Source: Candidatus Shapirobacteria bacterium
GTDB taxonomy: Bacteria > Patescibacteriota > Microgenomatia > UM-FILTER-40-11
Length of the DNA stretch: 64,000 nt
Assembly: GCA_020059745.1 (NCBI GenBank)
Contig: JAGVBK010000004.1
Span: forward strand, 100,797 to 164,796
Direction: 5' to 3'
In this document: positions 31,125 to 50,819 of the stretch, one piece after another
Position numbering within the stretch: the first letter of the stretch is position 1
How the letters are laid out: each line of letters opens with the position of its first letter
Made by a program: the position numbers and the translations under genes
The notes under the pieces: generated by a model
Told to the model about the DNA's origin: nothing
Database searches by the model: none
The model's input: the letters and a program-made list of their open reading frames with translations, nothing else

Positions 31125-31127
31125 AAA

Positions 31128-32216: not shown

Positions 32217-32227
32217 CCTGAAAGGGG

Positions 32228-36119: not shown

Positions 36120-36524
36120 ATGAAGAAAAAAAGGCTTTATCTTTTTGTTAGTATTGTTCTTTTATTTTCTGCTTTTGTTCTTTTTAACTTTGTTATTCCT
36201 GTAAAAAAAGCTCCGAAGATAAACTTTTTTATTCCTAAAACAAAGGAGCAATCTAGAGAGGATATTCAATTAAAAGAAGAGGTAACCGGCAGTAAAAAAA
36301 CAAAACTTGAAGAATATAACCGCTATAGTTTTAAAGATATAAGCCTCGAATACAGAGCAAATAAGTTGGTTATTGTTTTTTTTAAAAACTCACTTAAAGA
36401 AGCACAAAAACAAGTTAGCGATTTTTTTCAAAACCAAAACTTAGATCCTAATGAATATAACTTCGAGTATATTGACCTTAATAAAAGTGATAAAGAACCG
36501 CCTTCCGGGTTTGGGCAGTCTTGA
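36120..36524 (+). CDS. Hypothetical signal-anchored protein
   Basis: The ORF-track start at 35970 overlaps the upstream gene. The internal ATG at 36120 (MKKKRLYLFVSIVLLF) gives a non-overlapping signal-anchored protein. Confidence 0.4.
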   Translation: MKKKRLYLFVSIVLLFSAFVLFNFVIPVKKAPKINFFIPKTKEQSREDIQLKEEVTGSKKTKLEEYNRYSFKDISLEYRANKLVIVFFKNSLKEAQKQVSDFFQNQNLDPNEYNFEYIDLNKSDKEPPSGFGQS

Positions 36525-36566: not shown

Positions 36567-38141
36567 ATGAAAAAAAATAATTTTTTTAAGCTACTTATCC
36601 CTGCTTTTATATTTTTCTTCTTTTTTGGGACAAATAAAACCTACGCCTCTATCCCAATCGGCACTGGAGAGGATTGCACAACTTCGCAAGACTGTCTTCG
36701 TGAATATGGTATGGGAACTTGTATAAATAGGGTCTGCGTCACTACTCAAAATGATATTCTTGAATTCCAAAGAGAAGTTGAGGCAGGTAAAAACGGAAAC
36801 CCTAATTTATCCTGGTTCTCAAGTGAAGTGTTTGGCAAGGTTGCTGATGCCGGTGTTTCGGAAATTTTTGGCAATATTCCTGAAGGAGAAACTTCCCAAT
36901 CGTACGTCCCCGGAGGAGTTATCGGAAGCCTGGGGAAAATGCTTTCTTCCTTGTATGCCATTCCTCCGGCTTCTGGAGGAGAATACATTGCCTCCATAAA
37001 AAGAGACCTTGGAGTAGTAAGCCCGGCTTATGCCCAAGGCATAGGCTTTGAAGGCTTAAGGCCAGTTCTTGAAATCTGGAAAACATTCAGAAACATCTCT
37101 TACATATTCTTTGCCCTAATTGCCCTTTATATTGGTTTTGCTATCATGTTCAGACTTAAACTTGACCCAAGAACTGTTATCTCCATTCAAAATTCACTTC
37201 CTAAACTAGTAGTTGCTTTTCTTTTGATTACTTTTTCCTATGCCATTGCCGGACTTCTTATTGATTTGTCTTACATCCTCATGTTTATAATCATGAACAC
37301 AGTCGGAGAAATAACCTTTGGAAGACTTGAGTACGATGGCTTTGCTGATTTTACCAATTTTCTTACAGGCAGGACTTACGATAACAACAACTGGTTTTTT
37401 GTTGGCAGATACCTCGCCCAGGTTATTCTTCTTACTGTTGGCTCGCTACCAAAAATTCTTCCTATTTTGCTCTTTCCGGTAGCTAGGTTAATTTTTGGGG
37501 CCATAATAATCTATGTCTTACTTAAAATCTTATACCAAGTGCTGATATCTTACGTTAATATTGTGCTTCTGGTAATTTTTGCCCCTTTCCAGCTTCTTGT
37601 TTCGGCCTTACCAGGCAATAAAGATGGCACTAAGTGGTTTAGAAATTTAATCGCAAACATTGCAGTTGTACCAACAATACTAACGATGTTCCTTTTGGCA
37701 GGTTATTTTTTAAGCTTCGACGCTTTTAACTTTTCTTCAGAAAACGCTCTTGATGTTATTGAGGCAACGTGGGAGTCGATAAGAGGAATCTTTACTGCGG
37801 ATGGAGCTTTTGCCAGCATCCAAAATGTTCTTACCTGGGCAGCCACTCAGTTAATTGGTTTTGGCCTTTTTGTTATGATCCCTAAAGTAACAGACATGGT
37901 TAAGTACACACTGCAAATTAAGGGTTATGACTTCCCGTCTGCAATCGGCGAAACAATGTCTGGAGCTTATGAAAGAAGTTTTGGCAAAGAAGCTTCCAAA
38001 TATGCCCAAGCGCAAAGGCTGTATGAAAGCAATCCTTGGTTGTATCCCGATCCTTCCACTGTGGGTGCCTTTTCTAGATTTAAAGGTGTGAAAGACTGGT
38101 TTGGCAGAATGGGGGCCAAGACTGAAGGCGGAAGAAAATAA
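36567..38141 (+). CDS. Polytopic membrane protein with a Cys-rich secreted N-terminal domain, possibly VirB6/TrbL-like
   Basis: Signal peptide, a Cys-rich region, then at least six TM helices. Sits inside the pilin / VirB4 cluster. Confidence 0.35.
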   Translation: MKKNNFFKLLIPAFIFFFFFGTNKTYASIPIGTGEDCTTSQDCLREYGMGTCINRVCVTTQNDILEFQREVEAGKNGNPNLSWFSSEVFGKVADAGVSEIFGNIPEGETSQSYVPGGVIGSLGKMLSSLYAIPPASGGEYIASIKRDLGVVSPAYAQGIGFEGLRPVLEIWKTFRNISYIFFALIALYIGFAIMFRLKLDPRTVISIQNSLPKLVVAFLLITFSYAIAGLLIDLSYILMFIIMNTVGEITFGRLEYDGFADFTNFLTGRTYDNNNWFFVGRYLAQVILLTVGSLPKILPILLFPVARLIFGAIIIYVLLKILYQVLISYVNIVLLVIFAPFQLLVSALPGNKDGTKWFRNLIANIAVVPTILTMFLLAGYFLSFDAFNFSSENALDVIEATWESIRGIFTADGAFASIQNVLTWAATQLIGFGLFVMIPKVTDMVKYTLQIKGYDFPSAIGETMSGAYERSFGKEASKYAQAQRLYESNPWLYPDPSTVGAFSRFKGVKDWFGRMGAKTEGGRK

Positions 38142-38148
38142 AAAGGTA

Positions 38149-40215
38149 CTACATTCCAAATCTTTTCCTGTTTCTTTTTATCCTTCTTCTAATGATTTCT
38201 CTCCTGCCAAAGTATTTATCCATTCTCATGTGCTTTCCTAAATTATTCGGATTATTTAAATTCACGCCGTTTAAATCTTTAAAAGCTTTTTCTCTTGCTT
38301 TCTTAACAGGCATTTCCATTGTCGCATACAGCCTGTCATCTCCCAAAACCTGGGTAAGTATAAGATCATAATGTTCATAGCTTATATTAAGCAAAATGTC
38401 TGAGGAATAGTTAGCAGGCCCTTGCATCATGCCAATTACCGCCCCTTCAAGAAGTTCAATATCAGAATAAACATCTGAAAGTAATTTAGACCGTCCTGTC
38501 CTTAGCTTTGACAGTGCCGTTGCCAATTCTTGGACTGTCGGGTTTTTAGCTTTACTTTGGATTATGTAATATATTCTTTTTGCCGAATCCATCAAATCGC
38601 CGTAGCCTGGCCAAAGCTCTCCGCTTCCAATTTTACTAAGGCCGACATCTTCAGGATTAACATAATCAAAAAGGCCTGACCCGGGTTCAATTTCTTTTTT
38701 CCTTGAGAGAACCAGGGTTTGAGCTAAGGTAGGAGGAGTTTCTCTTCTTTTTTTGTCTCCTTCCCCAACGTTTGTTAAATCAAACAGGCTAAAAAACATT
38801 CTCTTTGGCATAAAATTAATTTTGCCTTCTTCAAATTTTTTTCTGAATTTTAGATCATGCCTTATTCTCTCTGCGTACCAATCGCCAAGATTCCCCCCCC
38901 AACTTTCATCTGTTCCAAAGTCTTCTTTGCCTGTAAGCCACTTACCACGACCTTTGTCTTGTGGTCTAAAAAAAGCCCTTATCTGTTCTGCGTATACATT
39001 TCCATTTCTTATATGTCTTCCCACATCGCCTGAGTCAGGTGCGTTTCCTACAAAAATTAGATTCCAGGCAACTGAAAAAGCAGCCAAGGCCGATACTTCA
39101 GGCGACGAATCAGGACCTCCCATCGTGTTTTCTGGAGTTAAAAGTTCGGGGTTCTCTTTAAAGTATTTTGTTAATTTATCAACAAACTTTTCTTTATAAT
39201 CGTCAAAGTTAGTTAACTCCTCAAGTCCTTTTTTGTCTACATATAAACTTCCAGTGTTACTTAAGAGAAAAAAATCATTAAACATTGTTGCCATGGCAAT
39301 CCTAAAACCAGGCATGTGGTTCCACATAGTAATTAAGGCTTCTTTATTAACTCTAATATCTCTCCTGTCTGTATAGTCATCAAGGCTTAAGTGGGCAGCT
39401 TCCCTTTTAATATAACTTCCCAAAAGAATTCCCAACCTAGTCCTAATTACATTTTTCCACCTTTCCGGTAAACGATCATACCAAACAGGAGGCTGAGTAT
39501 CAAAAAGTTGAACATTTAAACCTGCCTGAGCCGACTCTGCAGAAACAAGACCGCTATAACCCGTAACCCTAAAAGCTTCATATTGTTCCCTTTGCATCTC
39601 TATTGTTTCAGCCTGAAACTGGTCTTGCCGCGAAAGGCTTCTTTCCTCAATTCTAATTATCTGGTCAAGTTTCTCGGCAAGTTGATTGTCAGGCGAACGA
39701 GAGGTAGGGCTTTCCTCAACAGGGGTTTGTGTGAGACTGTTTCTTAGAAGATTAAGTCTTTCTTCAGCATACCATCTTATAACCCCATAGTGGGGGTCAT
39801 CTTCAGAAAGACCCCATTCCTTGTCTAAATCTCTTGCTTGTCTTCTTTCTTCTCTTATATCCTCTGCGGTAAGACGCCCTTCTCTTTTTTTTGCCTCTAG
39901 ATCTTGGAGTACATCCGTAAAAGGCTTAAAAGCTCCCTCGTCTTGTAAGTCTTGTACAAGACCTTGTATTCTCCCTCTTACTTCACTGATCACATCGTTA
40001 ATCTTTCTTTTTTCTTCCTCTTCAGTTGTTTTTCTCAAACGGGAGAGAAGCCGCTCTCTTTCTTTTAAGGCATCAATAAAAGACAGTTCGCTTACTGGCT
40101 TTTTGCTGGACTCTGGATTAACTGTTTGTCCTAGTTCTGATTTATTCATATTTTCACTTGGTTGACTATCGACACTTTCGGGCATGGTACTAAAATTATA
40201 GCAAAAATCAAGCAA
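38149..40215 (-). CDS. Hypothetical protein, 688 aa, with an acidic/coiled N-terminal third and a basic C-terminal tail
   Basis: Clean long ORF on the opposite strand inside the T4SS-like cluster. No motif recognised. Confidence 0.4.
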   Translation of the reverse strand: MLDFCYNFSTMPESVDSQPSENMNKSELGQTVNPESSKKPVSELSFIDALKERERLLSRLRKTTEEEEKRKINDVISEVRGRIQGLVQDLQDEGAFKPFTDVLQDLEAKKREGRLTAEDIREERRQARDLDKEWGLSEDDPHYGVIRWYAEERLNLLRNSLTQTPVEESPTSRSPDNQLAEKLDQIIRIEERSLSRQDQFQAETIEMQREQYEAFRVTGYSGLVSAESAQAGLNVQLFDTQPPVWYDRLPERWKNVIRTRLGILLGSYIKREAAHLSLDDYTDRRDIRVNKEALITMWNHMPGFRIAMATMFNDFFLLSNTGSLYVDKKGLEELTNFDDYKEKFVDKLTKYFKENPELLTPENTMGGPDSSPEVSALAAFSVAWNLIFVGNAPDSGDVGRHIRNGNVYAEQIRAFFRPQDKGRGKWLTGKEDFGTDESWGGNLGDWYAERIRHDLKFRKKFEEGKINFMPKRMFFSLFDLTNVGEGDKKRRETPPTLAQTLVLSRKKEIEPGSGLFDYVNPEDVGLSKIGSGELWPGYGDLMDSAKRIYYIIQSKAKNPTVQELATALSKLRTGRSKLLSDVYSDIELLEGAVIGMMQGPANYSSDILLNISYEHYDLILTQVLGDDRLYATMEMPVKKAREKAFKDLNGVNLNNPNNLGKHMRMDKYFGRREIIRRRIKRNRKRFGM

Positions 40216-40437
40216 AAATTAAATCTATAAGCTGTTTATTGAAAAATGCAAAAGAATGGCTGATAATACTTTTAGTTAAAGCAGGAAATTCGGAAAGGCA
40301 AGTAAGCCGAAGCTGTGCCGCAACTGTAATCCGAACAAAGTGAGGATTACGCCCTGAGCAATGTCGAAGGGTGTAGTGCAAATTTTGAAAGGTAAGCCAG
40401 AATACTGCATAACTTTTATTTCCCGAGCAGGAAAAAT

Positions 40438-41406
40438 ATGCCTCAAAACAAAGAAAGATTTGCCATTGAAATCTCAGGTTGGCAAGAAAAGCCTCTAGAA
40501 GCACTCCAAGGAGATATTGCCTCGTTTTCAATTGAGGCGGGGAAAGTTCCTTTGGAAAAAAGAATCAACCCCGTTGCTGTTAGTCTTGAAAACTTCAGAA
40601 CCTTGGTTAAAAAAGGCAGCCCGGATTCAGAAGATCAGGCAACGGAAAAAATTTATGATTGGGCAGAAAAAGTGTCTCCTTCAGTTTATCTTTGGCTTGA
40701 TACGGTAAGTGAAGAAGAAGTCCTTCTTGGCATGAAAGGATTCATCAATCTTAATCCGGGCAATGTCGGTGTTTGGATAAGCCCACCTTTTAAGGATCAT
40801 TACAAAGAGTCGAGAATTGCCGTCTACCAAGTAGTTGAAGTAAATAATCGGAAGTATCTTTTTTTTAGGAATTTTTGCGGCAACTTAAGTTCAGAGGAAT
40901 GCTACAGCCTTGCCTTGGGTCTGGAAAAATTCTCTTTAGATAGAAACTTGATCGTAAACGACCCCGAGCTTATTCGCTCCTCTCCTCTTTTTCTTAATAT
41001 TCCGGGAAGTTCTTTTGTTTCCTTTCTTTCAAAAAATATTCCCGATATATCTTCCTGGTCAGAAGTTGAAAAAGGAAAAGATATCGAAGAAAAAATAAAT
41101 GCCTTAAAAGTTGCTTCAGGCATCTTAGACGAAAACACCTATACTGCCATTAATAAAGCAGTAACGCCAGAAGAGCAAATTCTAATTGGAAGGTTAATAG
41201 AAATTAGGTTACAAGAAAAGTTGGGCAAGGCTCTTTCGCCCAGCTCTTGCGGAAATCTTTATTCGGCTTTTAGTAACCCTCTTTTTGTCTCTATAAGAGG
41301 AATACACTCTCAAGAAATAACCACTAGAAGGAAACACTGCGGTAAATGCGGTAAATACGGTTATTTTCTTGATGGTGAAACCTGCCCCTACGATACCAAA
41401 GATTAA
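40438..41406 (+). CDS. Hypothetical protein with a C-terminal zinc ribbon
   Basis: HCGKCGKYGYFLDGETCPYD at the C-terminus. Preceded by a ~220-nt structured leader. Confidence 0.4.
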   Translation: MPQNKERFAIEISGWQEKPLEALQGDIASFSIEAGKVPLEKRINPVAVSLENFRTLVKKGSPDSEDQATEKIYDWAEKVSPSVYLWLDTVSEEEVLLGMKGFINLNPGNVGVWISPPFKDHYKESRIAVYQVVEVNNRKYLFFRNFCGNLSSEECYSLALGLEKFSLDRNLIVNDPELIRSSPLFLNIPGSSFVSFLSKNIPDISSWSEVEKGKDIEEKINALKVASGILDENTYTAINKAVTPEEQILIGRLIEIRLQEKLGKALSPSSCGNLYSAFSNPLFVSIRGIHSQEITTRRKHCGKCGKYGYFLDGETCPYDTKD

Positions 41407-41466
41407 GTTGCCACACTATGTTACCGTTGAAAGAAGTTCGATAAAAAAGTAAGATAAAAAGGTAAA

Positions 41467-42453
41467 ATGCAGCAACATCCGGTTCCTCAACCAATTACCA
41501 GCTACGAGTTTCACTTAGTGGGAGATATGACCTTAAAGCAGTTTGGCAAGCTGGCTGCTGGAGTTGTCTTGGCTTTAATTGTTTATGCTTTTAATCCTCC
41601 TGCTTTGTTTAAATGGCCTCTTGTTTTCATTTTTGTCAGTCTTGGTGCTGGCTCTGCTTTTATCCCTTTTGAAGGCAGGCCAATTGATACTTGGATTTTT
41701 GCGTTTTTTAAAAGAATTTATTCTCCAACCCAATATGTTTGGCGTCAAGGGGGAGCGGTGCAATCAATTCCTTCAATAAATAAAGAGCAGACAAGTCAAA
41801 AAAACACCTTTCAAAGTTCAATTCACCCAGGTATCGGATTTAAGCCTCCCACAATACATATGCCAAATTTAAACATTAAAAACACTGTTTCTCTCTTTAG
41901 TAAAAAAAATGAAGCTAGTCCTGATGAAAAAGAAGCAAACCCGCCAAAAGAAACACAAAAAGAACAAAAAGAAAACCAAAAACCAGCCTCGCAAACAATA
42001 GTCTTAAGTAGAACTCCTGCTTCCCCTCCTGCCGGTCCAACAAAAACTTTTCAAGCTCATACCCAGCAAGCCGTTAGCACAGGAACAATTCTTAAGCCTC
42101 CTTCTCTTCCAAAATTTTCTCCTCCAACTCAAATTATTCAGCCAAAAGTGGAAGCAAAATTTGTGCCCTCAGCCATTATTCCCGCAACGCCAACTATGTC
42201 AAACTTGCTTGTTGGTTTTGTCCATACTCCTGACGGAAAAATCGTTGAAAATGCCATTTTGGAGGTCAGAGACCCCCAGGGAACTCCGGTGCGGGCTTTT
42301 AAAACCAACAAGCTTGGCCAATTCAGAAGCGCTACTCCCCTTCCTAATGGTTCTTATGAGATAGAAACAGAAAAAGAAGGCTTCAGATTTGATATAATCA
42401 AAGTTGAGCTCAAAGGCGAAATTTTATCGCCTATTGAAATCGTCAGCAAATAG
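41467..42453 (+). CDS. Membrane protein with two N-terminal TM helices, a Pro/Lys-rich linker and a C-terminal carboxypeptidase-regulatory-like beta-sandwich (possible VirB3/PrgI-like T4SS component)
   Basis: A TM hairpin (LAAGVVLALIVYAF...LVFIFVSLGAGSAF). The C-terminal GFVHTPDGKIVENAILEVRD...GSYEIETEKEGF looks like a CarboxypepD_reg fold. Confidence 0.35.
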   Translation: MQQHPVPQPITSYEFHLVGDMTLKQFGKLAAGVVLALIVYAFNPPALFKWPLVFIFVSLGAGSAFIPFEGRPIDTWIFAFFKRIYSPTQYVWRQGGAVQSIPSINKEQTSQKNTFQSSIHPGIGFKPPTIHMPNLNIKNTVSLFSKKNEASPDEKEANPPKETQKEQKENQKPASQTIVLSRTPASPPAGPTKTFQAHTQQAVSTGTILKPPSLPKFSPPTQIIQPKVEAKFVPSAIIPATPTMSNLLVGFVHTPDGKIVENAILEVRDPQGTPVRAFKTNKLGQFRSATPLPNGSYEIETEKEGFRFDIIKVELKGEILSPIEIVSK

Positions 42454-42491
42454 CTCCTCTTATTTTAAAATTTGAAATTTAAAATTTAAAA

Positions 42492-43169
42492 TTGGTAAAT
42501 ATGGATCCTGCCCGAATTCCAATAAGAGCCACCACCCAAGAAAGCCTGCCCGTTGAGGACGTTAAAGACAACATTGTAATCTTAAAAGACGGGTCTTGCG
42601 CTTTGGTGCTTTCTGTTTCCTCGGTAAATTTTGATCTCTTGTCAGAAAGAGAGCAAGACGCCATTATTTATGCTTACGGCGCTATGCTTAATTCGCTTAC
42701 CTTTCCTATTCAAATTTTGGTAAGATCTCAGCAAAAAGATATTTCTTCATATCTTGAGCTTTTAGAAAAACAGGAAAAAATGAAAGTAAACTCCAGCCTT
42801 ATTCAGAAAATGATTGCCTCGTACCGAAAGTTCGTCTCTGAAATGGTAAGAAAAAACAATGTTTTGGACAAAAAATTTTATGTGGTAATCCCTTTTTCCG
42901 CATTAGAACTAGGCGTTGCCAGCACCCTAACCTCGGTTTTTAAAAAAAGAACAAACCTCCCTTTTTCAAAAGAATACATACTGACCAAAGCCAAAACCGC
43001 ACTTTTTCCCAAAAGAGATCATTTAATTAAGCTCTTTGCCAGGCTTGGGCTGGTGGCCAGACAAATGGAAACAAAAGAGCTTATCCGGCTTTATTATAAA
43101 ATCTATAACACCGAAGAAGAAGTTAACAAACAAATAAACCAGGAAGTAAAAAGAAATGGAAATCCTTAA
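42492..43169 (+). CDS. Hypothetical protein coupled to the VirB4-like ATPase (possible N-terminal VirB4-domain homolog)
   Basis: Its stop overlaps the next gene's start by 14 nt. No motif recognised. Confidence 0.3.
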   Translation: MVNMDPARIPIRATTQESLPVEDVKDNIVILKDGSCALVLSVSSVNFDLLSEREQDAIIYAYGAMLNSLTFPIQILVRSQQKDISSYLELLEKQEKMKVNSSLIQKMIASYRKFVSEMVRKNNVLDKKFYVVIPFSALELGVASTLTSVFKKRTNLPFSKEYILTKAKTALFPKRDHLIKLFARLGLVARQMETKELIRLYYKIYNTEEEVNKQINQEVKRNGNP

Positions 43170-45156
43170 AAAAATAAAAAATAAAATTCCGGCAAAAAAG
43201 AAAGTAGGTCAGGCGGAAACTAACCAAAGCCAAACCAACTCTCAATCGATTTCACCAAAACCAGTTAGTCTGGACTCCTGTGTCCAGGATGTAATCGCCC
43301 CCTCCGCCATTGAAGTAGATTTTGACTACCTAAAAATAAACAATCATTACACAAGAACCCTTTTTGTTGCCGGCTATCCTCGCTACGTAAGCGCTAACTG
43401 GCTTTCTCCTTTAATAAATTTTGACCATTCTTTGGATATTTCTCTTTTTGTTTACCCTGTTGAAAGCAAATCGGTTTTAGATGATTTGAGAAGAAAAATT
43501 GCAGAAATGGAAGCAGAAATCTCAACAGACATTGAAAGAGGTAAGGTAGTTAACCCTGCCACGCAGGCAAAACTTGAAGATGCAATTACCATGCAAGAGC
43601 AGCTGGTTAAAGGTGCAGAAAGATTTTTTCAGTTTGCAATTTACATCACTATCACCACAGAGACACTCGAAAAGCTAAACCAAGTTTCCAAAGGAGTTGA
43701 ATCAACCCTGGCCGCACTGCTCATTATCCCCAAGCACGCTACCTTACAAATGGAAGAAGGTTTTAAAAGCACCTTGCCTATTTGTGCCGATTATCTAAAC
43801 ATTACCAGAAACATGGATACCACTTCTTTGGCAACTACCTTTCCTTTTACTTCTTCTGAGTTGACTGCCAACGAAGGAATCATGTACGGCATAAACGAGC
43901 ATAACGGTTCTTTAATTGTTTTTGACCGCTTTACCTTAGAAAACTACAACAGTGTTGTTTTTGCTAAAGCCGGTGCCGGTAAAAGCTATATGGTTAAGCT
44001 TGAGGTTTTGCGTTCTTTAATGTTTGATTCTGAAATTATTATCATTGACCCTGAAAACGAATACGAAAGGCTTTGCAGCGCAGTGGGCGGAGAAAATATA
44101 AGCTTTGGCTTTAACTCTAAGGCTAAGGTTAATCCTTTTGATCTTTCCCAGGTTTATGAAGAAGGAGAAAACGAGCTTAATAATAAAATCCTTTCCCTTC
44201 ACTCCCTTTTTAAAGTCATTATGGGAAATCTTTCTGCTACTGAAGAAGCTATCCTTGACAGGGCGCTAATGATGACTTACCAGATGAAAGGAATAACCCA
44301 AGATCCGGAAACCCAGAAAAAAGAGCCGCCGCTTATGGAGGACCTTTTCAAGGCTTTAATCGGCATGGAAGACCCTCAAGCTCGCTCGCTTGCCGACAGA
44401 ATTGAAAAATTTGTTAAAGGCTCTTTTACCGGTATCTTTGACCAGCGCTCAAACATTGATATAAAAAACCCCTTTACTGTTTTTTCTTTAAGAGATCTTG
44501 AATCGACATTAAGGCCTATTGCAATGTTTATAATTTTGGATTTTATCTGGACCAGAGTTAAAAAAGACTTAAGAAAAAGGATATTAGTAGTTGACGAGGC
44601 TTGGTTTATGATGAGAAGCAAAGATTCAGCCGAGTTTCTTAATTCGATCGCCAAAAGGGCCAGAAAATACTATCTTGGCGTCACTACCATTACTCAAGAT
44701 GTTGAAGATTTTCTTAAAGATGATCTTGGTAAGGCAATTGTCACCAATTCCTCAATTCAGGTTCTGATGAAACAACACCCGGCAGCCATTGATAAGGTTG
44801 CTCAGGTTTTTTACCTCTCTGAGGGAGAAAAACAATTTTTGCTTGCCTGTGATGTCGGTGAAGGCCTGTTTTTTGCCGGTGAAAATCATGTTGCGATGCG
44901 GGTTATTGCCTCTTCGGAGGAACACCAGCTTATCACCTCAAAACCGCAAGAAATAATCCAGAGAAAAGCGGCTAATAAAGAAAGCCCTGCAGCAACTGCC
45001 CAAGAAAGTAAAAAAGAAGCGGCTAAGGAAGTTGTTATGGAAAATATAGCGCCCCAAACCAGCCAAAACACTTCTATAAATCAAAGCAATCCTTTGCCTC
45101 CTAAATTCAAAAGTGAGATAATAATGGATAATGCCACAAGAGACAGCAACCAATAG
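43156..45156 (+). CDS. VirB4/TraC/TrbE-like T4SS ATPase
   Basis: Walker A FAKAGAGKSY and Walker B RILVVDEAWFM, with overall VirB4-like spacing and size. Confidence 0.7.
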   Translation: MEILKKIKNKIPAKKKVGQAETNQSQTNSQSISPKPVSLDSCVQDVIAPSAIEVDFDYLKINNHYTRTLFVAGYPRYVSANWLSPLINFDHSLDISLFVYPVESKSVLDDLRRKIAEMEAEISTDIERGKVVNPATQAKLEDAITMQEQLVKGAERFFQFAIYITITTETLEKLNQVSKGVESTLAALLIIPKHATLQMEEGFKSTLPICADYLNITRNMDTTSLATTFPFTSSELTANEGIMYGINEHNGSLIVFDRFTLENYNSVVFAKAGAGKSYMVKLEVLRSLMFDSEIIIIDPENEYERLCSAVGGENISFGFNSKAKVNPFDLSQVYEEGENELNNKILSLHSLFKVIMGNLSATEEAILDRALMMTYQMKGITQDPETQKKEPPLMEDLFKALIGMEDPQARSLADRIEKFVKGSFTGIFDQRSNIDIKNPFTVFSLRDLESTLRPIAMFIILDFIWTRVKKDLRKRILVVDEAWFMMRSKDSAEFLNSIAKRARKYYLGVTTITQDVEDFLKDDLGKAIVTNSSIQVLMKQHPAAIDKVAQVFYLSEGEKQFLLACDVGEGLFFAGENHVAMRVIASSEEHQLITSKPQEIIQRKAANKESPAATAQESKKEAAKEVVMENIAPQTSQNTSINQSNPLPPKFKSEIIMDNATRDSNQ

Positions 45157-48100
45157 GGGTTATAGACAGAATCTTGGTTCATTTATTGTTTATGCTTCTT
45201 CCTTTATTGATGGTGAAAACAGAAAGCAAAGGATTGATAACTCCGAGTCCTTCCAAAAAGTAAACAATCAAGTCAGATTTCTTCTTGTTGGTCTTGGACT
45301 TTCCGATATGGAAACTTTTGAAGATCTTAATTTTGAAGAATCTGTTGATATTCTTAAAAAGTACCTTAGTTCTATCGAAGAAGATCCTTCAGGTGCCAGT
45401 ATTCCAGTAAACTTAAAAGAGCTTGTTGAAAACTTAAACGATAGAGATAATCAAAAAATAGACCAGGAAATCAGTCGGACATTGCAAGATCTAAGAAGAG
45501 TAACAAACCTGAAAACTGTTTTAGCTCAGTCACTAGGGCAAAAAAATTTTTTTACCGATAAAGAAGACGAGGTGGCAAGCTTGGTCCTCGAAAACAGCAG
45601 TGTTGCCAATAAAATTGAGCAAATAGAAAAATCCAGCCTGGAAAAGGACCAAAAAGAAGAAGAAATTAAACAAGTCTGGCAAGAAGCTTGGAATGAAGCA
45701 GTAGAGCAAACAGGTTTAAAAATTACAAAAGACTTACCGGTTGAAAAAATCAGAGAAATTGCCTCAGAAATTAAAAATTATTTAGCGCAAAAAGATGAAG
45801 TCTACCAAATAATCAAAAAACATACTCCAGAAGGTGTTGATATTTTAACGGTTCCAAAAGCAGAAAATACTGCAGAAAAAGCAACTGAAATAGTTGAATC
45901 TATCTTAGCAGATAATGAACTTACGGAAATGGTTAGGGAAATTAAAGATTCTGCTCTCTCTCAACAGGAAAGAACAGAGAGAGTCCGGAAAATTCTACCT
46001 CAAGTTTTTAGAAAAGCAGTTGAAGATACCCAAACACAGACACTTGTCAGAGTAGAACCTACCCCTGAACAAATAGCGAAATTATCAGACCAACTTTTAT
46101 CCCCTGAACCACAAAAAGAAGTCTTAAAAATCTTGACTGAGACAATTATTAGTGAAAAGACTAAAGCCCCACTTCAAACACCTGTTGATCCCAAAGAAGT
46201 GGCTGAAATCTCTTCAGTTATTTTGAATGACAAAAAGCTAAAAAGCGAAATAACAAGAATCCTAGAAGACGAAGAGATTCCAAAGGAAAGTAAACCCAAG
46301 GAAATCGGACAGGCGGTCAAAAATACAATACTAACTATTGAAAAAACTGACCTTTCTCTAGAGCAAGTTCAGAAGGTTAGAAATCTCGAATTTTCTCCCG
46401 AAGAAAGCCAAAAGCTGGCAGAAGAAATTATCAAACCCTCCCCTCAAAGAAGAAATGTTGAAAAAACAGTTGAGTCTCTTATATTTCCGAAGGAAACATC
46501 ACCCTTGATACTGTCACAAGAAACAGAACAAGCACTTCTCCAAAATATCACAAACCTAGTTGTTGATGACAAAAATTTATCTCAACAAATTGAGGAAATT
46601 AATGCCAATCCAAATCTGAGCCTAAAAGAAAAAGACGAAAGAATAAGGAAAGTCTGGAACAGTACTTGGAAAAAAGCACAAGGAATAACCGGGCAAGAAA
46701 CCGCCAAAGAAATTCCCATTTCGCCAGAAGAAATAAATAAAATTGCTAAAGTCTCAAAAGAAAAAAGCAAAAAAAAAGAGAAAATAAAAGATGAAACTGT
46801 TGGAACAATTCCTATTTTTCATCAAAACCTTCTGATTAACCGTGAAGATGTTATTGCTAGAAACATAATTCTTAAAGAAGAAACGCTTCTTTCAATAGAC
46901 AAAACGCTTAACAATCCTCTTCTTTCGGGAAGGGAAAAAATTGAAACTATTGGTAAAATTTGGTCAGATGTCTGGGACAGGGCAATTGATCAATCTGGTT
47001 TAACACCAAAAGAAGCAGTAAAAACTAAAGAGCATGTATTTTCAACCCAAACAGTCAATCATTTCATTAAAGAGTTATCAAAACCCCAGGTCGATACTGG
47101 CATTGTCAGCGGAATAATAAAAGAATCTTTTAAACCTTTAACTAAAAAGCAACAAATTGCTGTCCAACAATTTCTTCTTCCTACTGTCGCTACCAACAGA
47201 GCCTTAGTCTCTGAACTGGGCTGGGAAAATGTATTTTTAATTTCTTTTGCTGAGATTGCACCAATCTTAACTAGCGAGGAATTCAATTTAAACTCTGACC
47301 AAGCACTAAACATAATAAAAAATTATTCACAAGTGGCTGAGAAAATGTCTCCTGCCGAGCAAGTAGGAAAAGAGATGTCTCCACTCACCCCTCAACTTGT
47401 TTTTTGGAAAAGACATTTTACCCCTTTAGTCAACATCAGTAAACCAGAAGGTAATCCTCAAGGAAACGCCTGGCTAGTTAAAGACGAAAGAGGAAGAACA
47501 ATTTTTGAAAATGTTAAGCTTGGAATTAATCTTGGACTAAGTCCAGAGCTTGCATTTCAATTCCAAAAAGAAGCAGGTGAAAGATTGAGTTTGCACTGGA
47601 CAACACAGGGAATTAATCCTCAAGAAATTCAGAAAACAAAAGATATAATTCTAAAATCTCTTGAAGAACTTCATGAATCAAAAAATTACGCCTTAATTAG
47701 CGATAGTGAACTTGTGGAAAACTATTCTAGATTCCAAAAAGAGTTACCGCAAAAGAAAGTAAATACATGGGCAAGCAATCGCATTAAAAGTATTTCAAAC
47801 CTAATAAAAGCCAAACCAACACCTTTCCCTAATAAAATTAAGACAGATATTAAAAAATGGTTTTTAAATACCAAAATAGGAAAACAGATCAAGGGGGTAA
47901 TCAGCACTTTTTCGCAAAATTCACTTCAGAAATTTTTTTCTACCACCCAAATTGGAATAAAAAAAGCAACAACCGCAGCAGTTTTTAAAATTCTTACAAA
48001 ATTAGGATTACAAGCTGTTGCAAATACATTAGCACCTGTTATCGGAACAATCATTGCCTTTGCGGCAGAAAAAATTATTAAAGCGGGAGTTAGGTTGGTC

Positions 48101-48856
48101 CGAAAAGTATTTTCTTCAATCACTTCAGGGTTTGGCCTTGCTGATACACTTCTTGGAAACATTTCAAACCAAAACATAAACAAAAATGACGACAAAGGAA
48201 TTGCCTTCTTACTTATAGGAGTTATCGGCTTTATTGTGTTTTTCCCAATTTTTGTTATCCTTGTGATTTTAGGTGGAGCTTTTATTGGAGAAATGAACTT
48301 TTCAAATGAATATATTGAACAAGCAAGGATAAGCTATGCAACACTTGCCGACTATGAATGTGACAACCCGCGCCATTTTTCCGAGGAAGTAATTTGCAAG
48401 CTTTCCAAAGAAAATTATCCCTGCAACAACAGTTTGATTACTACCCATACCTGGATTAATGTTAGTTCTTGTTTTAGTCAAATTACCCTTAATAATAAAG
48501 AAGCCATAAGTAATAAATTCCTTGACCATATTCAGAGATACGGCAAGCTTCAATGTCTTGGTTTTGCTTTAGTTATCCAGTCTTCACTTGGCCAAAATTT
48601 TGACCTTGGTCACGGAAGCGCAGGAATGTATACCCAATCACCCTACCCGAGTGGCTACACAAAAATTGATGGAAGTGGTGAACCGGCAAGAGGAGATCTT
48701 GCTGTTTGGTCTGGCTCACCAGGCCATATTGCCCTTGTTTTAGGCACAAGTGGTAATATTAAAATTGTTGTTGCCGAAGCTGACGGTACAAGCGGTATGA
48801 TTGCCATAAAAGAAAGAGCAAGGCCTTCAATATTTTTAAGATATGAAAGTGAGTAA
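45131..48856 (+). CDS. Giant (1241-aa) repeat-containing membrane protein with a C-terminal CHAP peptidoglycan-hydrolase domain (PrgK/TcpG-like)
   Basis: Internal repeats (IKQVWQEAWNEAVEQTGL, IRKVWNSTWKKAQGITG, IGKIWSDVWDRAIDQSGL) and TM helices near residue 1000. The CHAP signature has Cys in LQCLGFALV and His in GHIALVLG. Confidence 0.6.
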   Translation: MPQETATNRGYRQNLGSFIVYASSFIDGENRKQRIDNSESFQKVNNQVRFLLVGLGLSDMETFEDLNFEESVDILKKYLSSIEEDPSGASIPVNLKELVENLNDRDNQKIDQEISRTLQDLRRVTNLKTVLAQSLGQKNFFTDKEDEVASLVLENSSVANKIEQIEKSSLEKDQKEEEIKQVWQEAWNEAVEQTGLKITKDLPVEKIREIASEIKNYLAQKDEVYQIIKKHTPEGVDILTVPKAENTAEKATEIVESILADNELTEMVREIKDSALSQQERTERVRKILPQVFRKAVEDTQTQTLVRVEPTPEQIAKLSDQLLSPEPQKEVLKILTETIISEKTKAPLQTPVDPKEVAEISSVILNDKKLKSEITRILEDEEIPKESKPKEIGQAVKNTILTIEKTDLSLEQVQKVRNLEFSPEESQKLAEEIIKPSPQRRNVEKTVESLIFPKETSPLILSQETEQALLQNITNLVVDDKNLSQQIEEINANPNLSLKEKDERIRKVWNSTWKKAQGITGQETAKEIPISPEEINKIAKVSKEKSKKKEKIKDETVGTIPIFHQNLLINREDVIARNIILKEETLLSIDKTLNNPLLSGREKIETIGKIWSDVWDRAIDQSGLTPKEAVKTKEHVFSTQTVNHFIKELSKPQVDTGIVSGIIKESFKPLTKKQQIAVQQFLLPTVATNRALVSELGWENVFLISFAEIAPILTSEEFNLNSDQALNIIKNYSQVAEKMSPAEQVGKEMSPLTPQLVFWKRHFTPLVNISKPEGNPQGNAWLVKDERGRTIFENVKLGINLGLSPELAFQFQKEAGERLSLHWTTQGINPQEIQKTKDIILKSLEELHESKNYALISDSELVENYSRFQKELPQKKVNTWASNRIKSISNLIKAKPTPFPNKIKTDIKKWFLNTKIGKQIKGVISTFSQNSLQKFFSTTQIGIKKATTAAVFKILTKLGLQAVANTLAPVIGTIIAFAAEKIIKAGVRLVRKVFSSITSGFGLADTLLGNISNQNINKNDDKGIAFLLIGVIGFIVFFPIFVILVILGGAFIGEMNFSNEYIEQARISYATLADYECDNPRHFSEEVICKLSKENYPCNNSLITTHTWINVSSCFSQITLNNKEAISNKFLDHIQRYGKLQCLGFALVIQSSLGQNFDLGHGSAGMYTQSPYPSGYTKIDGSGEPARGDLAVWSGSPGHIALVLGTSGNIKIVVAEADGTSGMIAIKERARPSIFLRYESE

Positions 48857-49481
48857 TATGTTTAAAGATAAAAGAATCAAGTTTATAGTTTTTCTTTCCT
48901 TGGTTGCTGGATTACTCTTAGGAATCAAGCTCATTATTCCTAAAGTTAAAAAATTAGAAATAGTTGAAACCTCACCTAAAGACAATCAAGAAGTTTCCAT
49001 TAATTCAAATATTGTCTTTGTCTTTAATCAGGCCGTCAGTTCACAAGATTTTATTGTTTCGACATACCCTGTTTTCAACTACTTAATTGAAAACAAAGAT
49101 CAAAATTCAATTTCCATTAAGCCTACCCTTCTTAAATACAGCACTGAGTATAAAATAGAATTAAAACACGAAAGGATTGAAAATTTTTATGGTGTTTTAA
49201 CTTTTACAACCACTAAAGCTCCAAAAACACCTGAATATGACGAAAAACAAACAGAAAAATTCTATGAACAACTTGAGAAAGAGACCTATGAAGACTATCC
49301 CCTATTTGACCATATTCCTTATTATGGAAAAGATTTCTCAATTGACTATTTAAAACCCTTAACTCTCGAGGTTGTTCTTAAAAAAGAAACCCAGGAAACA
49401 AGAGAAGAAGCCTTGGAGTGGATAAGGTCAAAAGGGATTGATCCCTCTACTCATAAAATTGAGTGGAAATACCAGCCTTAA
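48843..49481 (+). CDS. Hypothetical signal-anchored protein
   Basis: N-terminal TM segment. ORF only. Confidence 0.35.
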   Translation: MKVSNMFKDKRIKFIVFLSLVAGLLLGIKLIIPKVKKLEIVETSPKDNQEVSINSNIVFVFNQAVSSQDFIVSTYPVFNYLIENKDQNSISIKPTLLKYSTEYKIELKHERIENFYGVLTFTTTKAPKTPEYDEKQTEKFYEQLEKETYEDYPLFDHIPYYGKDFSIDYLKPLTLEVVLKKETQETREEALEWIRSKGIDPSTHKIEWKYQP

Positions 49482-50606
49482 TTATTCTGTCTGCAGTCTT
49501 ACTGGCATGATAACATGAAGAAAGCTTTCGTCCTGGGCAATCTTAAAAACACCAGGATTTAAAGAGCCGGTCATGCTAAAAGAAATATCTTTTCCGGTAA
49601 CCGCTCCTAAAAACCCTTGCAAAAATCTGTAGTTAAAGGCAATCTCTCCTCCTTCTCCTTCAATACTGACCTCAATTTGGTTTTTGTTTTCACCGACTTG
49701 GGGGGAATTGGCACTCATCTCAAGAAAGCTGTCTTTAAAATTCATCTTAACAATGTTTGCAGATTCCCTGGCAAAAATGGAAACAAGCTTCACTGCCCGC
49801 GCCAAAGATTCCTTATCAAGAATAACTTTTGTTTCCGAGTTTTCCGGAATTATTTTTTCATAATCAGGAAACTCTCCCTCAATCACTCTGGAAAAAAGCT
49901 CCATTTCCGGAAAAACAAAAACAACCTGGTTTTGTTCTTTTGTAAAGCCCATTTGCAAGGTTAAGCCCTTTTCGGCTTTTTCTTCGGAAATGATTTTAGA
50001 AACCTCCATTAAAGTTCTTGCCGGAAGAAGAAGCTTAACTTCTTCTTTTACCGGACTATCCAGTTCAATGGTCTTTAAAGACAGCCTGTAACCGTCTGTA
50101 GCTACCATGGAAAGGGTTTTTCCTTGGATTTTGAACAGTACACCGGTTAAAACAGGACGGCCATCGTCAGAAGCGGCTGCAAAAGCCACCTGATTAATTG
50201 CCTCAGAAAGCTTTTCTGCCGGTAAAACAAACAAAGATTCAGGGGAATATACCGGTAGTTTAGGAAACTCAGAAGCGGAAATACCATTAATGTTGGCACT
50301 AAAACCTTCGCAGGAAATCTTTAAAGAATTCTCATTAACTAAAAGATCTATTTTTTCTGCGGGCAAAGAGGAAACTATTTCTGTTAAAATCCTTGCCGGA
50401 ACAGTAATTTCTCCCTCTTCTTCAACTTTTCCGCCCAACCATAAAGAAACTCCCGTTTCCAGATTGGTAGCTGATATTTTTAACCTGTTTTGGTCGGTTT
50501 TAATCAAAACATTGGCAAGAATCGGCAATTGGACCTTAGAAGAAATTGACCTTGAAGCAACCCCTAGGCCTTTATTAAGATTTTCTTGAAGTATTTGGAT
50601 TTTCAT
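49482..50606 (-). CDS. dnaN: DNA polymerase III beta subunit (sliding clamp)
   Basis: MKIQILQENLNKGL...three-domain clamp pattern. Directly downstream of dnaA. Confidence 0.9.
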   Translation of the reverse strand: MKIQILQENLNKGLGVASRSISSKVQLPILANVLIKTDQNRLKISATNLETGVSLWLGGKVEEEGEITVPARILTEIVSSLPAEKIDLLVNENSLKISCEGFSANINGISASEFPKLPVYSPESLFVLPAEKLSEAINQVAFAAASDDGRPVLTGVLFKIQGKTLSMVATDGYRLSLKTIELDSPVKEEVKLLLPARTLMEVSKIISEEKAEKGLTLQMGFTKEQNQVVFVFPEMELFSRVIEGEFPDYEKIIPENSETKVILDKESLARAVKLVSIFARESANIVKMNFKDSFLEMSANSPQVGENKNQIEVSIEGEGGEIAFNYRFLQGFLGAVTGKDISFSMTGSLNPGVFKIAQDESFLHVIMPVRLQTE

Positions 50607-50819
50607 TTTCCTCCTTAATTGCTATTTTAAAGTTTTTTTCCTTTTAAGTAAATTCGTTTATTTAATTTTAGTAGTAATAGTAGTAGATATCTGTGTATAA
50701 GTTAATATTTTGAAAATTTAAATTTGGTTTTCGGGTTATCTTTTTGTTTATAAACTACTTAAAATCTTGTGAATGAAATTGTTGATAACTTAGGCTCTTT
50801 TTGTTGATAAGTGCAAAAC
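50607..50819. other. Candidate oriC: AT-rich unwinding region plus DnaA-box-like 9-mers between dnaA and dnaN
   Basis: TTATACACA (reverse complement of 50692-50700) and two TTATCAACA-like boxes near 50775-50815. A very AT-rich stretch lies at 50610-50720. Confidence 0.5.

What the first reader, a model, noticed from the sequence alone, without database searches (positions are those of the whole stretch)
36567..48856. Gram-positive-type minimal T4SS-like module: VirB6-like polytopic protein, VirB3-like protein, VirB4-like ATPase and a 1241-aa CHAP-domain repeat protein
The VirB4-like ATPase has Walker A AKAGAGKS and Walker B LVVDEAW, and it is translationally coupled to the upstream 225-aa protein. 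A polytopic Cys-rich membrane protein (36567-38141), a 2-TM plus beta-sandwich protein (41467-42453) and a giant protein ending in a CHAP domain (Cys in QCLGFA, His in GHIALV) accompany it. The CHAP domain parallels the PrgK/TcpG cell-wall hydrolases of conjugative T4SSs.

No relaxase or coupling protein (VirD4) is seen in the window. The apparatus may therefore serve DNA uptake or host-cell attachment rather than conjugation.

The giant protein also has three copies of a (K/R)(V/I)W-x3-W-x2-A-x3-(T/S)G repeat of unknown function.

A 688-aa unknown ORF (38149-40215) sits on the opposite strand in the middle of the cluster.
Basis: partly seen in the sequence, partly recalled or inferred. Interest (0 to 1): 0.6.

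Follow-up and report, generated by a model that had tools for sequence, protein, structure and literature searches.

The report
Patescibacteria chromosomal type IV secretion locus
This is the chromosomal, origin-proximal type IV secretion gene cluster that ultrasmall Patescibacteria (here a Microgenomatia member) are already known to carry. It is a real machine whose function is still unknown, and the finding largely repeats work published in 2023-2025.

Summary
The ATPase is a true VirB4 of the Gram-positive CD1110 family, with the stated Walker motifs. A CHAP hydrolase follows it, and no relaxase, coupling protein or integrase lies in the 64 kb.

Three corrections are needed:
- The 225-aa protein is not VirB3. 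It is a TrsD-like homologue of the VirB4 N-terminal domain. The VirB3/PrgI homologue is the N-terminus of the 328-aa protein.
- The cluster is larger than reported. It starts at 30753 with six tandem VirB2-like pilins, a 977-aa secreted hydrolase with a lysozyme-like C-terminus, and a small bitopic protein.

The locus sits between housekeeping genes next to dnaN/dnaA. Its order is conserved in 80 species-level Microgenomatia relatives, so it is not a mobile element.

This matches the Patescibacteria T4SS already described by Wang 2023 and Quinonero-Coronel 2025. That system is essential in Southlakia and its function is unknown.

One new detail: almost every relative has a large, soluble, hypervariable, divergently transcribed gene at the position of the 688-aa ORF. 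That ORF has a confident model with no PDB fold match and a strongly basic C-terminal tail, so it is a candidate substrate.

The parts
30753..33166 (+). Array of six tandem VirB2-like pilin paralogues (ORFs 30753-31124, 31128-31487, 31471-31875, 31872-32216, 32228-32659, 32747-33166). Each has two hydrophobic helices flanking a conserved G-G-D-(P/K) loop.
   Evidence: All six match Pfam T4SS_pilin PF18895. Five reach or exceed the gathering score of 26.6 (E 6.8e-10 to 6.4e-06); the second (31128-31487) scores 21.0 bits, below it. Identity to the first paralogue is 24-30%. TM segments. Similar arrays occur upstream of virB4 in relatives. Six essential pilins are known in S. epibionticum (PMC10633639).
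33185..36118 (+). 977-aa secreted multidomain hydrolase in a VirB1-like role. It has a signal peptide, an N-terminal region with WNEPN/GIEAG motifs, a Cys-rich middle (30 Cys in the whole protein) and a C-terminal lysozyme-like domain (QIES Glu838, GPMQM).
   Evidence: The window protein has no Pfam hit. Among family members, SLT_3 hits 1 of 12, Cellulase 1 of 12 and GDSL 3 of 12. E838 is nearly invariant. The positional analogue in complete genome AP024680.1 carries SLT_3. The GH-A-like N-terminal reading is inferred from motifs only.
36120..36524 (+). Small bitopic membrane protein of about 134 aa counted from the internal ATG (the mechanical ORF begins at 35970, inside the previous gene). 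Role unknown. It is a possible VirB8-position protein.
   Evidence: Single TM at aa 58-76 of the long ORF; internal start MKKKRLYL at nt 36120. No homologue was found in the loci. A 175-aa gene occupies the same position in AP024680.1. Its fold was not tested.
36567..38141 (+). 524-aa polytopic membrane protein, VirB6-like by fold. It has a signal/anchor, a small 4-Cys ectodomain and at least 5 long TM helices.
38149..40215 (-). 688-aa soluble protein on the opposite strand. It has an N-terminal coiled-coil region, a confidently modelled C-terminal domain without a known fold match, and a very basic C-terminal tail.
40438..41406 (+). 322-aa soluble protein of unknown function with a C-terminal CxxC...C zinc-ribbon-like end. 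It is the first gene of the virB4 operon-like run.
   Evidence: No Pfam, NCBIfam or PDB hits. Homologues occur in only 5 loci. No TM segment.
41467..42453 (+). 328-aa VirB3/PrgI-like protein. The N-terminus has two TM helices and the C-terminus has a CarboxypepD_reg-like beta-sandwich.
   Evidence: Pfam PrgI covers aa 5-90 at E 1.9e-05, 25.6 bits (below the cut-off of 27). CarboxypepD_reg covers aa 249-307 at 27.3 bits (below 32.3). TMs at 29-47 and 48-66. Homologues occur in 72 of 80 relative loci, directly upstream of TrsD-VirB4.
42492..43169 (+). 225-aa TrsD-like protein, a stand-alone homologue of the VirB4 N-terminal domain. It is not VirB3.
   Evidence: NCBIfam TrsD/TraD at 6.5e-10. It aligns to positions 103-287 of VirB4_plasma and 2-127 of CD1110 VirB4. 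Pfam TraC-like is recorded for the identical gene. No TM segment. Present in 75 of 80 loci. It overlaps virB4 by 14 nt.
43156..45156 (+). 666-aa VirB4 ATPase, with Walker A at aa 270-277 and Walker B at aa 477-483.
   Evidence: NCBIfam CD1110-family VirB4 at 5.7e-120, 401.8 bits against a cut-off of 325. Pfam P-loop_TraG and AAA_10. PDB 4ag5 VirB4 at 1.5e-43. pCF10 PrgJ at 1.2e-46. Motifs.
45131..48856 (+). 1241-aa membrane-anchored cell-wall hydrolase. It has no signal peptide, an N-terminal ~950 aa rich in E/K with five ~105-aa repeats, a hydrophobic anchor at aa ~960-1050, and a C-terminal CHAP domain (Cys1142, His1199).
   Evidence: Pfam CHAP covers aa 1137-1216 at 26.3 bits against 26. 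C1142 and H1199 are >=90% conserved in 53 positional homologues. Those homologues carry M23 (21), CHAP (15) or other peptidoglycan hydrolase domains. Repeats; TMs. The topology (N-in, CHAP outside) is inferred.
48843..49481 (+). 212-aa bitopic protein with an extracellular Ig-like (Big_5) domain. It is the last gene of the cluster and abuts dnaN.
   Evidence: Pfam Big_5 at 1.1e-05, 26.5 bits against 23.6. TM at 14-32. Homologues occur in 32 loci at the same position. The positional analogue in S. epibionticum, SEML1_0005, is an essential exported PEGA/Ig-like protein.
49482..52172 (-). dnaN (49482-50606) and dnaA (50820-52172). These are the conserved origin-proximal housekeeping neighbours that anchor the locus in the chromosome.
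   Evidence: Pfam hits. dnaN lies within 8 kb downstream of virB4 in 49 of 57 relative loci that have enough sequence.

Best explanation
The region 30753-49481 is the chromosomally fixed, origin-proximal type IV secretion system characteristic of Patescibacteria (CPR), here in a Microgenomatia genome. It derives from the monoderm (MPF-FATA) conjugation machinery.

Shown components:
- A VirB4 ATPase, with its N-terminal domain homologue encoded separately (TrsD-like).
- A PrgI/VirB3-like membrane partner.
- A VirB6-fold polytopic channel protein.
- Six divergent VirB2-like pilins.
- Two wall-degrading enzymes: a secreted protein ending in a lysozyme-like domain, and a membrane-anchored CHAP protein.
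- Two small bitopic proteins.

Inferred mechanism:
- The hydrolases open the cell wall locally.
- VirB3, TrsD, VirB4 and VirB6 form the membrane translocon.
- VirB4 energises assembly of a pilin-based filament or conduit that reaches the host cell.
- With no relaxase and no coupling protein nearby, the machine most likely moves proteins or other molecules between epibiont and host rather than conjugating DNA.
For: -
- Relatives of VirB4 at 62-79% identity are Shapiro-, Curtiss-, Ames-, Woese- and Chisholmbacteria, all Microgenomatia.
- The gene order is conserved: pilins, hydrolase, VirB6-like, minus-strand gene, PrgI, TrsD, VirB4, hydrolase, Ig-like, dnaN, dnaA, yidC.
- The flanks are housekeeping genes: uppS, polyprenyl synthase, dnaN, dnaA, yidC, rpoD and dnaG.
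- GC content is even across the region. There are no flanking direct repeats and no adjacent tRNA.
- VirB4 is the only T4SS-type P-loop protein in the 64 kb.
- No homologue of pCF10 or pCW3 coupling proteins or relaxases occurs in the window or in 80 related loci, while the PrgJ control hits VirB4.
- The literature describes the same composition, the same dnaA/dnaN proximity and the same lack of relaxase (PMC12102498). It also shows essentiality in S. epibionticum, whose cluster has the same order (PMC10633639).
Against: - Function is not shown for any Microgenomatia member. All functional data come from one Saccharibacteria species.
- The PrgI and CarboxypepD_reg hits are below Pfam gathering scores, and CHAP is barely above its score.
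- A VirB8-like component was not identified.
- A coupling protein or relaxase could lie elsewhere in the genome. The paper reports many distant VirD4 homologues in Patescibacteria.
- The promoter and terminator scan was no better than chance, so the operon structure is inferred from overlaps only.
Confidence: 0.9

Rival explanations
1. The cluster is part of an ordinary integrative conjugative element. Its relaxase, coupling protein and integrase would lie outside the inspected stretch.
For: - VirB4 belongs to the family used by Gram-positive conjugative elements.
- The gene order VirB6-like, PrgI, VirB4, hydrolase, small membrane protein mirrors pCF10 prgH-prgL.
- A serine recombinase sits at 11972-13498.
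Against: - The recombinase is 17 kb away, separated from the cluster by rpoD, dnaG, tRNAs and tmRNA. It belongs to a separate defence island at tRNA-Asn.
- The cluster is bounded by housekeeping genes and sits next to dnaN/dnaA in 49 of 57 related species.
- There are no att-like repeats.
- No T4CP or relaxase was found in the window or within +/-10 kb of virB4 in 80 relatives.
- GC content is uniform.
Confidence: 0.03
2. The apparatus is a DNA-uptake (competence-type) T4SS, like Helicobacter ComB or the archaeal Ced system. It would import host DNA as a nucleotide source.
For: - There is no relaxase or T4CP.
- VirB4 has a weak match to CedB (3.1e-12, far below its cut-off).
- A comFC-like gene lies at 21538-22224.
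Against: - In S. epibionticum the T4SS is essential while comEC deletion abolishes competence without affecting viability. T4SS essentiality is therefore not explained by ComEC-dependent uptake (PMC12857230).
- comFC here is 9 kb away, behind unrelated genes.
- Competence in Saccharibacteria is attributed to type IV pili plus ComEC.
Confidence: 0.1
3. The ATPase is a HerA/FtsK-type translocase, and the neighbouring genes are unrelated envelope proteins, so there is no T4SS.
For: There is a Pfam DUF87 (HerA central domain) hit at 5e-08.
Against: - VirB4-specific models score far higher: CD1110 at 401.8 bits, above its cut-off, and P-loop_TraG at 96 bits.
- The best solved relative is a VirB4.
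- Co-conserved PrgI, TrsD, T4SS_pilin and VirB6-fold genes accompany it.
Confidence: 0.01

Closest known systems
T4SS of Candidatus Southlakia epibionticum ML1 (SEML1_0005-0019; Wang et al. 2023, PMC10633639) and the 'Patescibacteria clade' T4SS surveyed by Quinonero-Coronel et al. 2025 (PMC12102498)
   Same: - The component set is the same: VirB4, TrsD-like, PrgI/VirB3, VirB6-like, six divergent VirB2-like pilins, wall hydrolases directly after virB4 and an exported Ig-like protein.
- The gene order is the same.
- The position next to dnaA/dnaN is the same.
- Neither has a relaxase or T4CP in the cluster.
   Different: - The class is different (Microgenomatia, not Saccharimonadia).
- VirB6-like is 524 aa and undetectable by sequence profiles, against 1088 aa in Se.
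- The hydrolase is CHAP rather than lysozyme/peptidase.
- The gene between VirB6 and PrgI is on the opposite strand and unrelated in sequence to SEML1_0011.
- No NTF2/VirB8-like gene was recognised.
- Essentiality is untested here.
Enterococcus faecalis pCF10 Prg/Pcf conjugative T4SS (MPF-FATA prototype)
   Same: - VirB4 is of the same NCBIfam family. PrgJ matches the window protein at 1.2e-46.
- The local order is the same: prgH (VirB6-like), prgI, prgJ, prgK (large wall hydrolase with CHAP), prgL (small bitopic protein).
   Different: - pCF10 has the PcfC coupling protein, the PcfG relaxase and adhesins, and no pilins. The window has none of the first three and six pilins.
- PrgH, PrgI, PrgK and PrgL give no direct sequence hit in the window.
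- pCF10 is plasmid-borne, whereas this locus is fixed in the chromosome.
Staphylococcal pGO1/pSK41 Trs system (source of the TrsD family)
   Same: A separate TrsD protein related to the VirB4 N-terminal domain is encoded next to the VirB4-like ATPase (PMC12102498).
   Different: The Trs system is conjugative, with a relaxase and T4CP, and has no VirB2-like pilins.
VirB6-family channel proteins: TrwI of R388 and DotA of the Legionella Dot/Icm system
   Same: These are the best and only strong structural matches of the 524-aa protein's helical membrane core.
   Different: - Sequence identity is 8-13%.
- There is no Pfam TrbL hit for the window protein.
- Those proteins work in diderm systems with an outer-membrane core complex, which is absent here.

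Membership tests
Type IV secretion system (defined by VirB4) | A VirB4-family ATPase with intact Walker A and Walker B motifs | tested here: met
   NCBIfam CD1110 VirB4 scores 401.8 bits against a cut-off of 325. PDB 4ag5 matches at 1.5e-43. Motifs are at aa 270 and 477.
Patescibacteria-clade T4SS (PMC12102498, PMC10633639) | A TrsD-like and a PrgI/VirB3-like gene adjacent to virB4 | tested here: met
   TrsD at 6.5e-10. PrgI at E 1.9e-05, though 25.6 bits is below the gathering score of 27. Both are conserved next to virB4 in 75 and 72 of 80 relatives.
Patescibacteria-clade T4SS (PMC12102498, PMC10633639) | An array of divergent VirB2-like pilins (PF18895) in the cluster | tested here: met
   Six tandem ORFs match PF18895 (five at or above the gathering score, one at 21.0 bits), with 24-30% identity to the first paralogue.
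Patescibacteria-clade T4SS (PMC12102498, PMC10633639) | Chromosomal location near dnaA/dnaN, in a Patescibacteria genome | tested here: met
   dnaN abuts the last gene of the cluster. The nearest VirB4 relatives are Microgenomatia MAGs. The same synteny occurs in complete genome AP024680.1.
Patescibacteria-clade T4SS (PMC12102498, PMC10633639) | No relaxase or coupling protein associated with the cluster | tested here: met
   There are no such Pfam hits among the window ORFs of >=150 aa that were scanned; four of the 44 (18705-19271, 19308-19913, 49617-49964 and 53883-54344) were not scanned. Only three P-loop ORFs exist in the window. phmmer with PcfC, TcpA, PcfG and TcpM finds nothing. The rest of the genome could not be tested.
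Patescibacteria-clade T4SS (PMC12102498, PMC10633639) | Required for epibiotic growth on a host bacterium | not testable with these tools
   This is shown only for S. epibionticum, by Tn-seq.
Conjugative MPF-FATA T4SS / ICE | A relaxase plus a type IV coupling protein, with element boundaries (integrase, att repeats) | tested here: not met
   The flanks are housekeeping genes, and the locus is conserved at the same chromosomal site across species.
VirB6/TrbL family (524-aa protein) | A sequence match to TrbL/VirB6 or PrgH profiles | tested here: not met
   There is no Pfam hit for the window protein or for 30 relatives. The family profile finds no PrgH, TcpH or Tn916 orf15. One distant homologue, P0073, passes PF04610 at 26.4 bits against 25.9.
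VirB6/TrbL family (524-aa protein) | A polytopic inner-membrane protein with at least 5 TM helices and a VirB6-type helical fold, encoded in a T4SS cluster | tested here: met
VirB3 (as a label for the 225-aa protein) | A small inner-membrane protein with one or two TM helices, homologous to VirB3/PrgI/TraL | tested here: not met
   It has no TM segment. It matches TrsD and the N-terminal region of VirB4 instead.
CHAP domain hydrolase (1241-aa protein) | A Pfam CHAP match with a conserved catalytic Cys and His | tested here: met
   The match scores 26.3 bits against a cut-off of 26, which is marginal. C1142 and H1199 are >=90% conserved in 53 positional homologues, and 15 of those homologues hit CHAP. 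There is no PDB sequence hit. Activity is untested.
VirB8 / PrgL (NTF2-like bitopic protein) | A bitopic membrane protein with an NTF2-like ectodomain in the cluster | not tested
   The candidates are the ~134-aa (36120-36524) and 212-aa (48843-49481) bitopic proteins. The latter hits Big_5, which is not NTF2.

The most novel reading that the evidence does not exclude
The large, soluble, divergently transcribed gene between the VirB6-like and PrgI genes may be the dedicated cargo (effector) of this T4SS, or a lineage-specific stand-in for the missing coupling protein. It would evolve fast under host-specific selection.

Supporting observations:
- Here it is the 688-aa ORF at 38149-40215.
- In relatives the slot holds a 569-1385-aa, almost always TM-free, sequence-hypervariable ORF, found in 29 of the 31 loci that have both flanking genes.
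- The 688-aa protein has a confidently modelled C-terminal domain with no match among solved structures.
- Its C-terminal tail carries a net charge of +11. The family mean is +5.0, against +0.5 for background ORFs. This resembles the positively charged C-terminal translocation signals of VirB/VirD4 substrates.
Probability: 0.2. Interest if true: 0.65.

Novelty: already known. Interest (0 to 1): 0.3.

Why it matters
Patescibacteria make up a large share of uncultured bacterial diversity and live attached to other microbes. Their T4SS is the first T4SS shown to be essential for its bearer, and what it transports is unknown.

This window adds no new kind of system. It does offer a clean Microgenomatia example with two small increments:
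- The 'missing' VirB6 of Microgenomatia is most likely the 524-aa family, which is recognisable only by fold.
- A positionally conserved, hypervariable soluble protein with a basic C-terminal tail sits in the middle of the locus. It is a concrete candidate for the long-sought substrate.

Tried and rejected
- Sequence-level VirB6 tests failed. These were Pfam on the protein and on 30 relatives, a profile against PDB sequences, and a profile against pCF10 and pCW3 ORFs. The label therefore rests on fold.
- A second word-indexed search with the 688-aa alignment returned only the same three proteins.
- The afdb50 fold library was unavailable, so neither model could be compared with AlphaFold DB.
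- PDB sequence searches gave nothing for the CHAP region, the 977-aa protein, the 322-aa protein or the 688-aa family.
- BLAST self-comparison of the 1241-aa protein found no internal HSPs. The repeats are visible only by motif register.
- The promoter and terminator scan was not above shuffled expectation, so it was not used.
- The ICE reading was rejected on flanks and synteny. The FtsK/HerA reading was rejected on family scores.
- I considered whether the serine recombinase at 11972 marks the element. It belongs to a separate tRNA-Asn island.


Full report
**What is there**

Pfam and NCBIfam scans give the following.
- The 666-aa protein (43156-45156) is a VirB4 ATPase of the Gram-positive 'CD1110' family, at 5.7e-120 and 401.8 bits against a cut-off of 325. 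It also hits P-loop_TraG and AAA_10.
- Its closest solved relative is the Thermoanaerobacter VirB4 C-terminal domain, 4ag5, at 1.5e-43. pCF10 PrgJ matches it at 1.2e-46.
- Walker A AKAGAGKS sits at aa 270 and Walker B LVVDEAW at aa 477.
It is VirB4.

**Corrections to the parts list**

- The 225-aa ORF (42492-43169) overlaps virB4 by 14 nt and has no transmembrane segment.
- It matches NCBIfam TrsD/TraD at 6.5e-10, and the N-terminal regions of full-length VirB4 models: positions 103-287 of VirB4_plasma and 2-127 of CD1110. It is a stand-alone homologue of the VirB4 N-terminal domain, not VirB3.
- The VirB3 homologue is the N-terminus of the 328-aa protein (41467-42453). PrgI covers aa 5-90 at E 1.9e-05, with two TM helices. 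A CarboxypepD_reg-like beta-sandwich covers aa 249-307. Both hits are below the Pfam gathering scores.
- The 524-aa protein has only four cysteines, all in its N-terminal ectodomain, so 'Cys-rich' is wrong.
- The system starts 6 kb upstream of the stated coordinates.
  - Six tandem small two-helix proteins (30753-33166) all match Pfam T4SS_pilin PF18895. Five reach the gathering score of 26.6 and the second copy scores 21.0 bits. They share 24-30% identity with the first paralogue.
  - A 977-aa secreted protein follows. Its C-terminus carries a lysozyme-like QIES...GPMQM motif with a nearly invariant Glu838. Its relatives hit SLT_3, Cellulase and GDSL families.
  - A small bitopic protein comes next.
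- A 212-aa bitopic Big_5 protein closes the cluster and abuts dnaN.

**Is the 524-aa protein VirB6?**

- By sequence, no.
  - There is no Pfam hit for it or for 30 relatives.
  - There is no PDB sequence hit.
  - The family profile finds no PrgH, TcpH or Tn916 orf15.
  - Only one distant homologue, P0073, passes TrbL/VirB6, at 26.4 bits against 25.9.
- By fold, yes, moderately.
  - An AlphaFold2 model from 65 sequences has pLDDT 74.7, with the membrane helices above 90.
  - The five best Foldseek PDB matches are all TrwI/VirB6 chains of R388, but at E 0.12-0.5.
- This fits the published remark that VirB6 is 'scarce' in Microgenomatia, 'suggesting extreme sequence divergence'.

**The CHAP protein**

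- Pfam CHAP is marginal, at 26.3 bits against 26.
- 21 of the 53 proteins carry Peptidase_M23 and 15 carry CHAP. Others carry C39-like, YkuD, VanY or amidase domains.
- The slot after virB4 is therefore a wall hydrolase with an exchangeable catalytic module. This is analogous to PrgK in pCF10, which occupies the same position.
- The protein has no signal peptide. About 950 N-terminal residues are rich in E and K, and a hydrophobic anchor lies around aa 960-1050.
The core motif occurs three times, against none in 20,000 shuffles.

**Context: not a mobile element**

- The window is ordinary chromosome. It holds rpoD, dnaG, tRNAs, tmRNA, uppS, a polyprenyl synthase, dnaN, dnaA, yidC, L25 and a class I tRNA synthetase.
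- GC content is even across it.
- There are no att-like repeats and no tRNA next to the cluster.
- Among ORFs of at least 150 aa, only an ABC ATPase, VirB4 and DnaA carry a P-loop.
- phmmer with the pCF10 and pCW3 coupling proteins and relaxases finds nothing in the window, or within about 10 kb of virB4 in 80 related genomes.
- The one recombinase (11972-13498) belongs to a separate defence island at tRNA-Asn, 17 kb away.

**Relatives**

- A scan of species-representative genomes returned 80 loci with VirB4 at 62-79% identity. Those with sensible names are Shapiro-, Curtiss-, Ames-, Woese- and Chisholmbacteria, that is, Microgenomatia.
- TrsD-like is found in 75 of the 80 loci and PrgI-like in 72.
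- dnaN lies within 8 kb downstream of virB4 in 49 of 57 loci with enough sequence.
- The complete 786-kb genome AP024680.1 shows the whole arrangement: eight pilins, an SLT_3 protein, a 175-aa protein, a 540-aa protein, an opposite-strand gene, PrgI-like, TraC-like, VirB4, an M23 protein, a 336-aa protein, dnaN and dnaA.

**Comparison with the literature**

- Wang et al. 2023 showed by Tn-seq that the T4SS cluster of S. epibionticum (SEML1_0006-0019, next to dnaA) is essential. It resembles Gram-positive conjugative systems, has an essential array of pilins, and lacks a coupling protein and relaxase.
- Their tables show the same gene order as here.
- Quinonero-Coronel et al. 2025 surveyed the phylum. 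They found a distinct VirB4 clade related to MPF-FATA, with TrsD as the most frequent partner, plus PrgI/VirB3, VirB6 and VirB2 arrays that are especially common in Microgenomatia and Saccharimonadia. They found almost no relaxases, and proximity to dnaA/dnaN in Microgenomatia and Paceibacteria.
- A 2025 review notes that comEC deletion does not affect viability, so essentiality is not explained by ComEC-dependent DNA uptake.
- The finding is thus an instance of an already described system. No functional advance was found in papers up to mid-2026.

**The opposite-strand ORF**

- The 688-aa ORF has no family or PDB sequence match.
- It has only three homologues in the word-indexed search, and 160 cluster representatives in the exhaustive search.
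- It is nevertheless a real, well-folded protein, with AF2 pLDDT 87.7. The ten-residue block means over residues 220-688 are mostly above 95, with short dips at about 420-440 and 660-670.
- In 29 of the 31 relative loci that hold both the VirB6-like and PrgI genes, the gap holds a 569-1385-aa minus-strand ORF. 28 of these 29 ORFs have no predicted TM segment.
- These ORFs have no Pfam hits. They are so divergent that only 6 of 30 are reachable with the family profile.
- The last 30 residues of the window protein carry a net charge of +11. The family mean is +5.0, against +0.49 for other long ORFs in the same loci. Family members are related, so the statistic overstates independence.
- From my own knowledge, positively charged C-terminal tails are translocation signals of VirB/VirD4 substrates. 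This makes the gene a candidate cargo or accessory, but nothing here tests that.

**Verdict**

- The VirB3 label, the boundaries and 'Cys-rich' need correction.
- The system is already known.
- Its function remains inferred: a non-conjugative, pilus-forming secretion or exchange device at the epibiont-host interface.

Noticed in passing
window 5255-13531: A separate integrated defence or mobile island. It holds a SMODS+AGS_C (CBASS-like) cyclase (5951-7369), a LexA-like S24 repressor (7974-8567), an N6/N4 DNA methylase (8570-9496), a BglI-like restriction endonuclease (9516-10367) and a large serine recombinase (11972-13498). The 3' end of the recombinase overlaps tRNA-Asn (13457-13531).
   Followed up: partly
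window 38149-40215 and the equivalent slot in loci L009-L079: A large, soluble, hypervariable minus-strand gene is conserved in position but hardly in sequence between the VirB6-like and PrgI genes of Microgenomatia T4SS loci. Family members have a basic C-terminal tail.
   Followed up: yes
loci L004, L006-L013, L010, L014, L063 and others: Many public MAG records that carry this Patescibacteria locus are titled 'uncultured Gammaproteobacteria', 'Clostridia bacterium', 'Bathyarchaeia archaeon', 'Nevskiaceae' or 'Methanoperedens'. They are evidently mislabelled or mis-binned.
   Followed up: no
window 22793-23165: A tmRNA is present (Rfam 128 bits). ARAGORN's predicted tag peptide, VNKDKTQAAGLPNTSCQSLSLATSSFPG, is long and does not end in the usual hydrophobic -LAA-type tail. 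The resume codon may be mis-set, or the tag may be unusual.
   Followed up: no
window 23549-28086, compared with L025 and L082: A SpoIID-domain protein with a PcsB-like coiled coil (26374-28086), a bPH_2 membrane protein (25705-26367) and a 640-aa membrane protein (23549-25471) lie upstream of the pilin array. SpoIID and bPH_2 neighbour the T4SS in AP024680.1, and SpoIID and the 640-aa protein do so in L025, so the conserved neighbourhood may extend further.
   Followed up: partly
window 33185-36118: The 977-aa secreted protein contains 30 cysteines, concentrated in a CxxC- and CC-rich middle segment (aa ~320-670). Its relatives swap N-terminal catalytic modules (GDSL esterase, GH5-like) in front of the conserved lysozyme-like C-terminus.
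   Followed up: partly
window 53098-61310: Downstream of dnaA lie yidC, a Wzy_C O-antigen-ligase-like protein, a polysaccharide flippase-like protein and a 998-aa DUF4012 protein. Together they look like a surface-polysaccharide cluster.
   Followed up: no
window 18132-18655 and 21306-21501: There are two clusters of tRNA genes, comprising four tRNA-Ser and two tRNA-Arg. A comFC-like gene (21538-22224) lies next to the second cluster.
   Followed up: no
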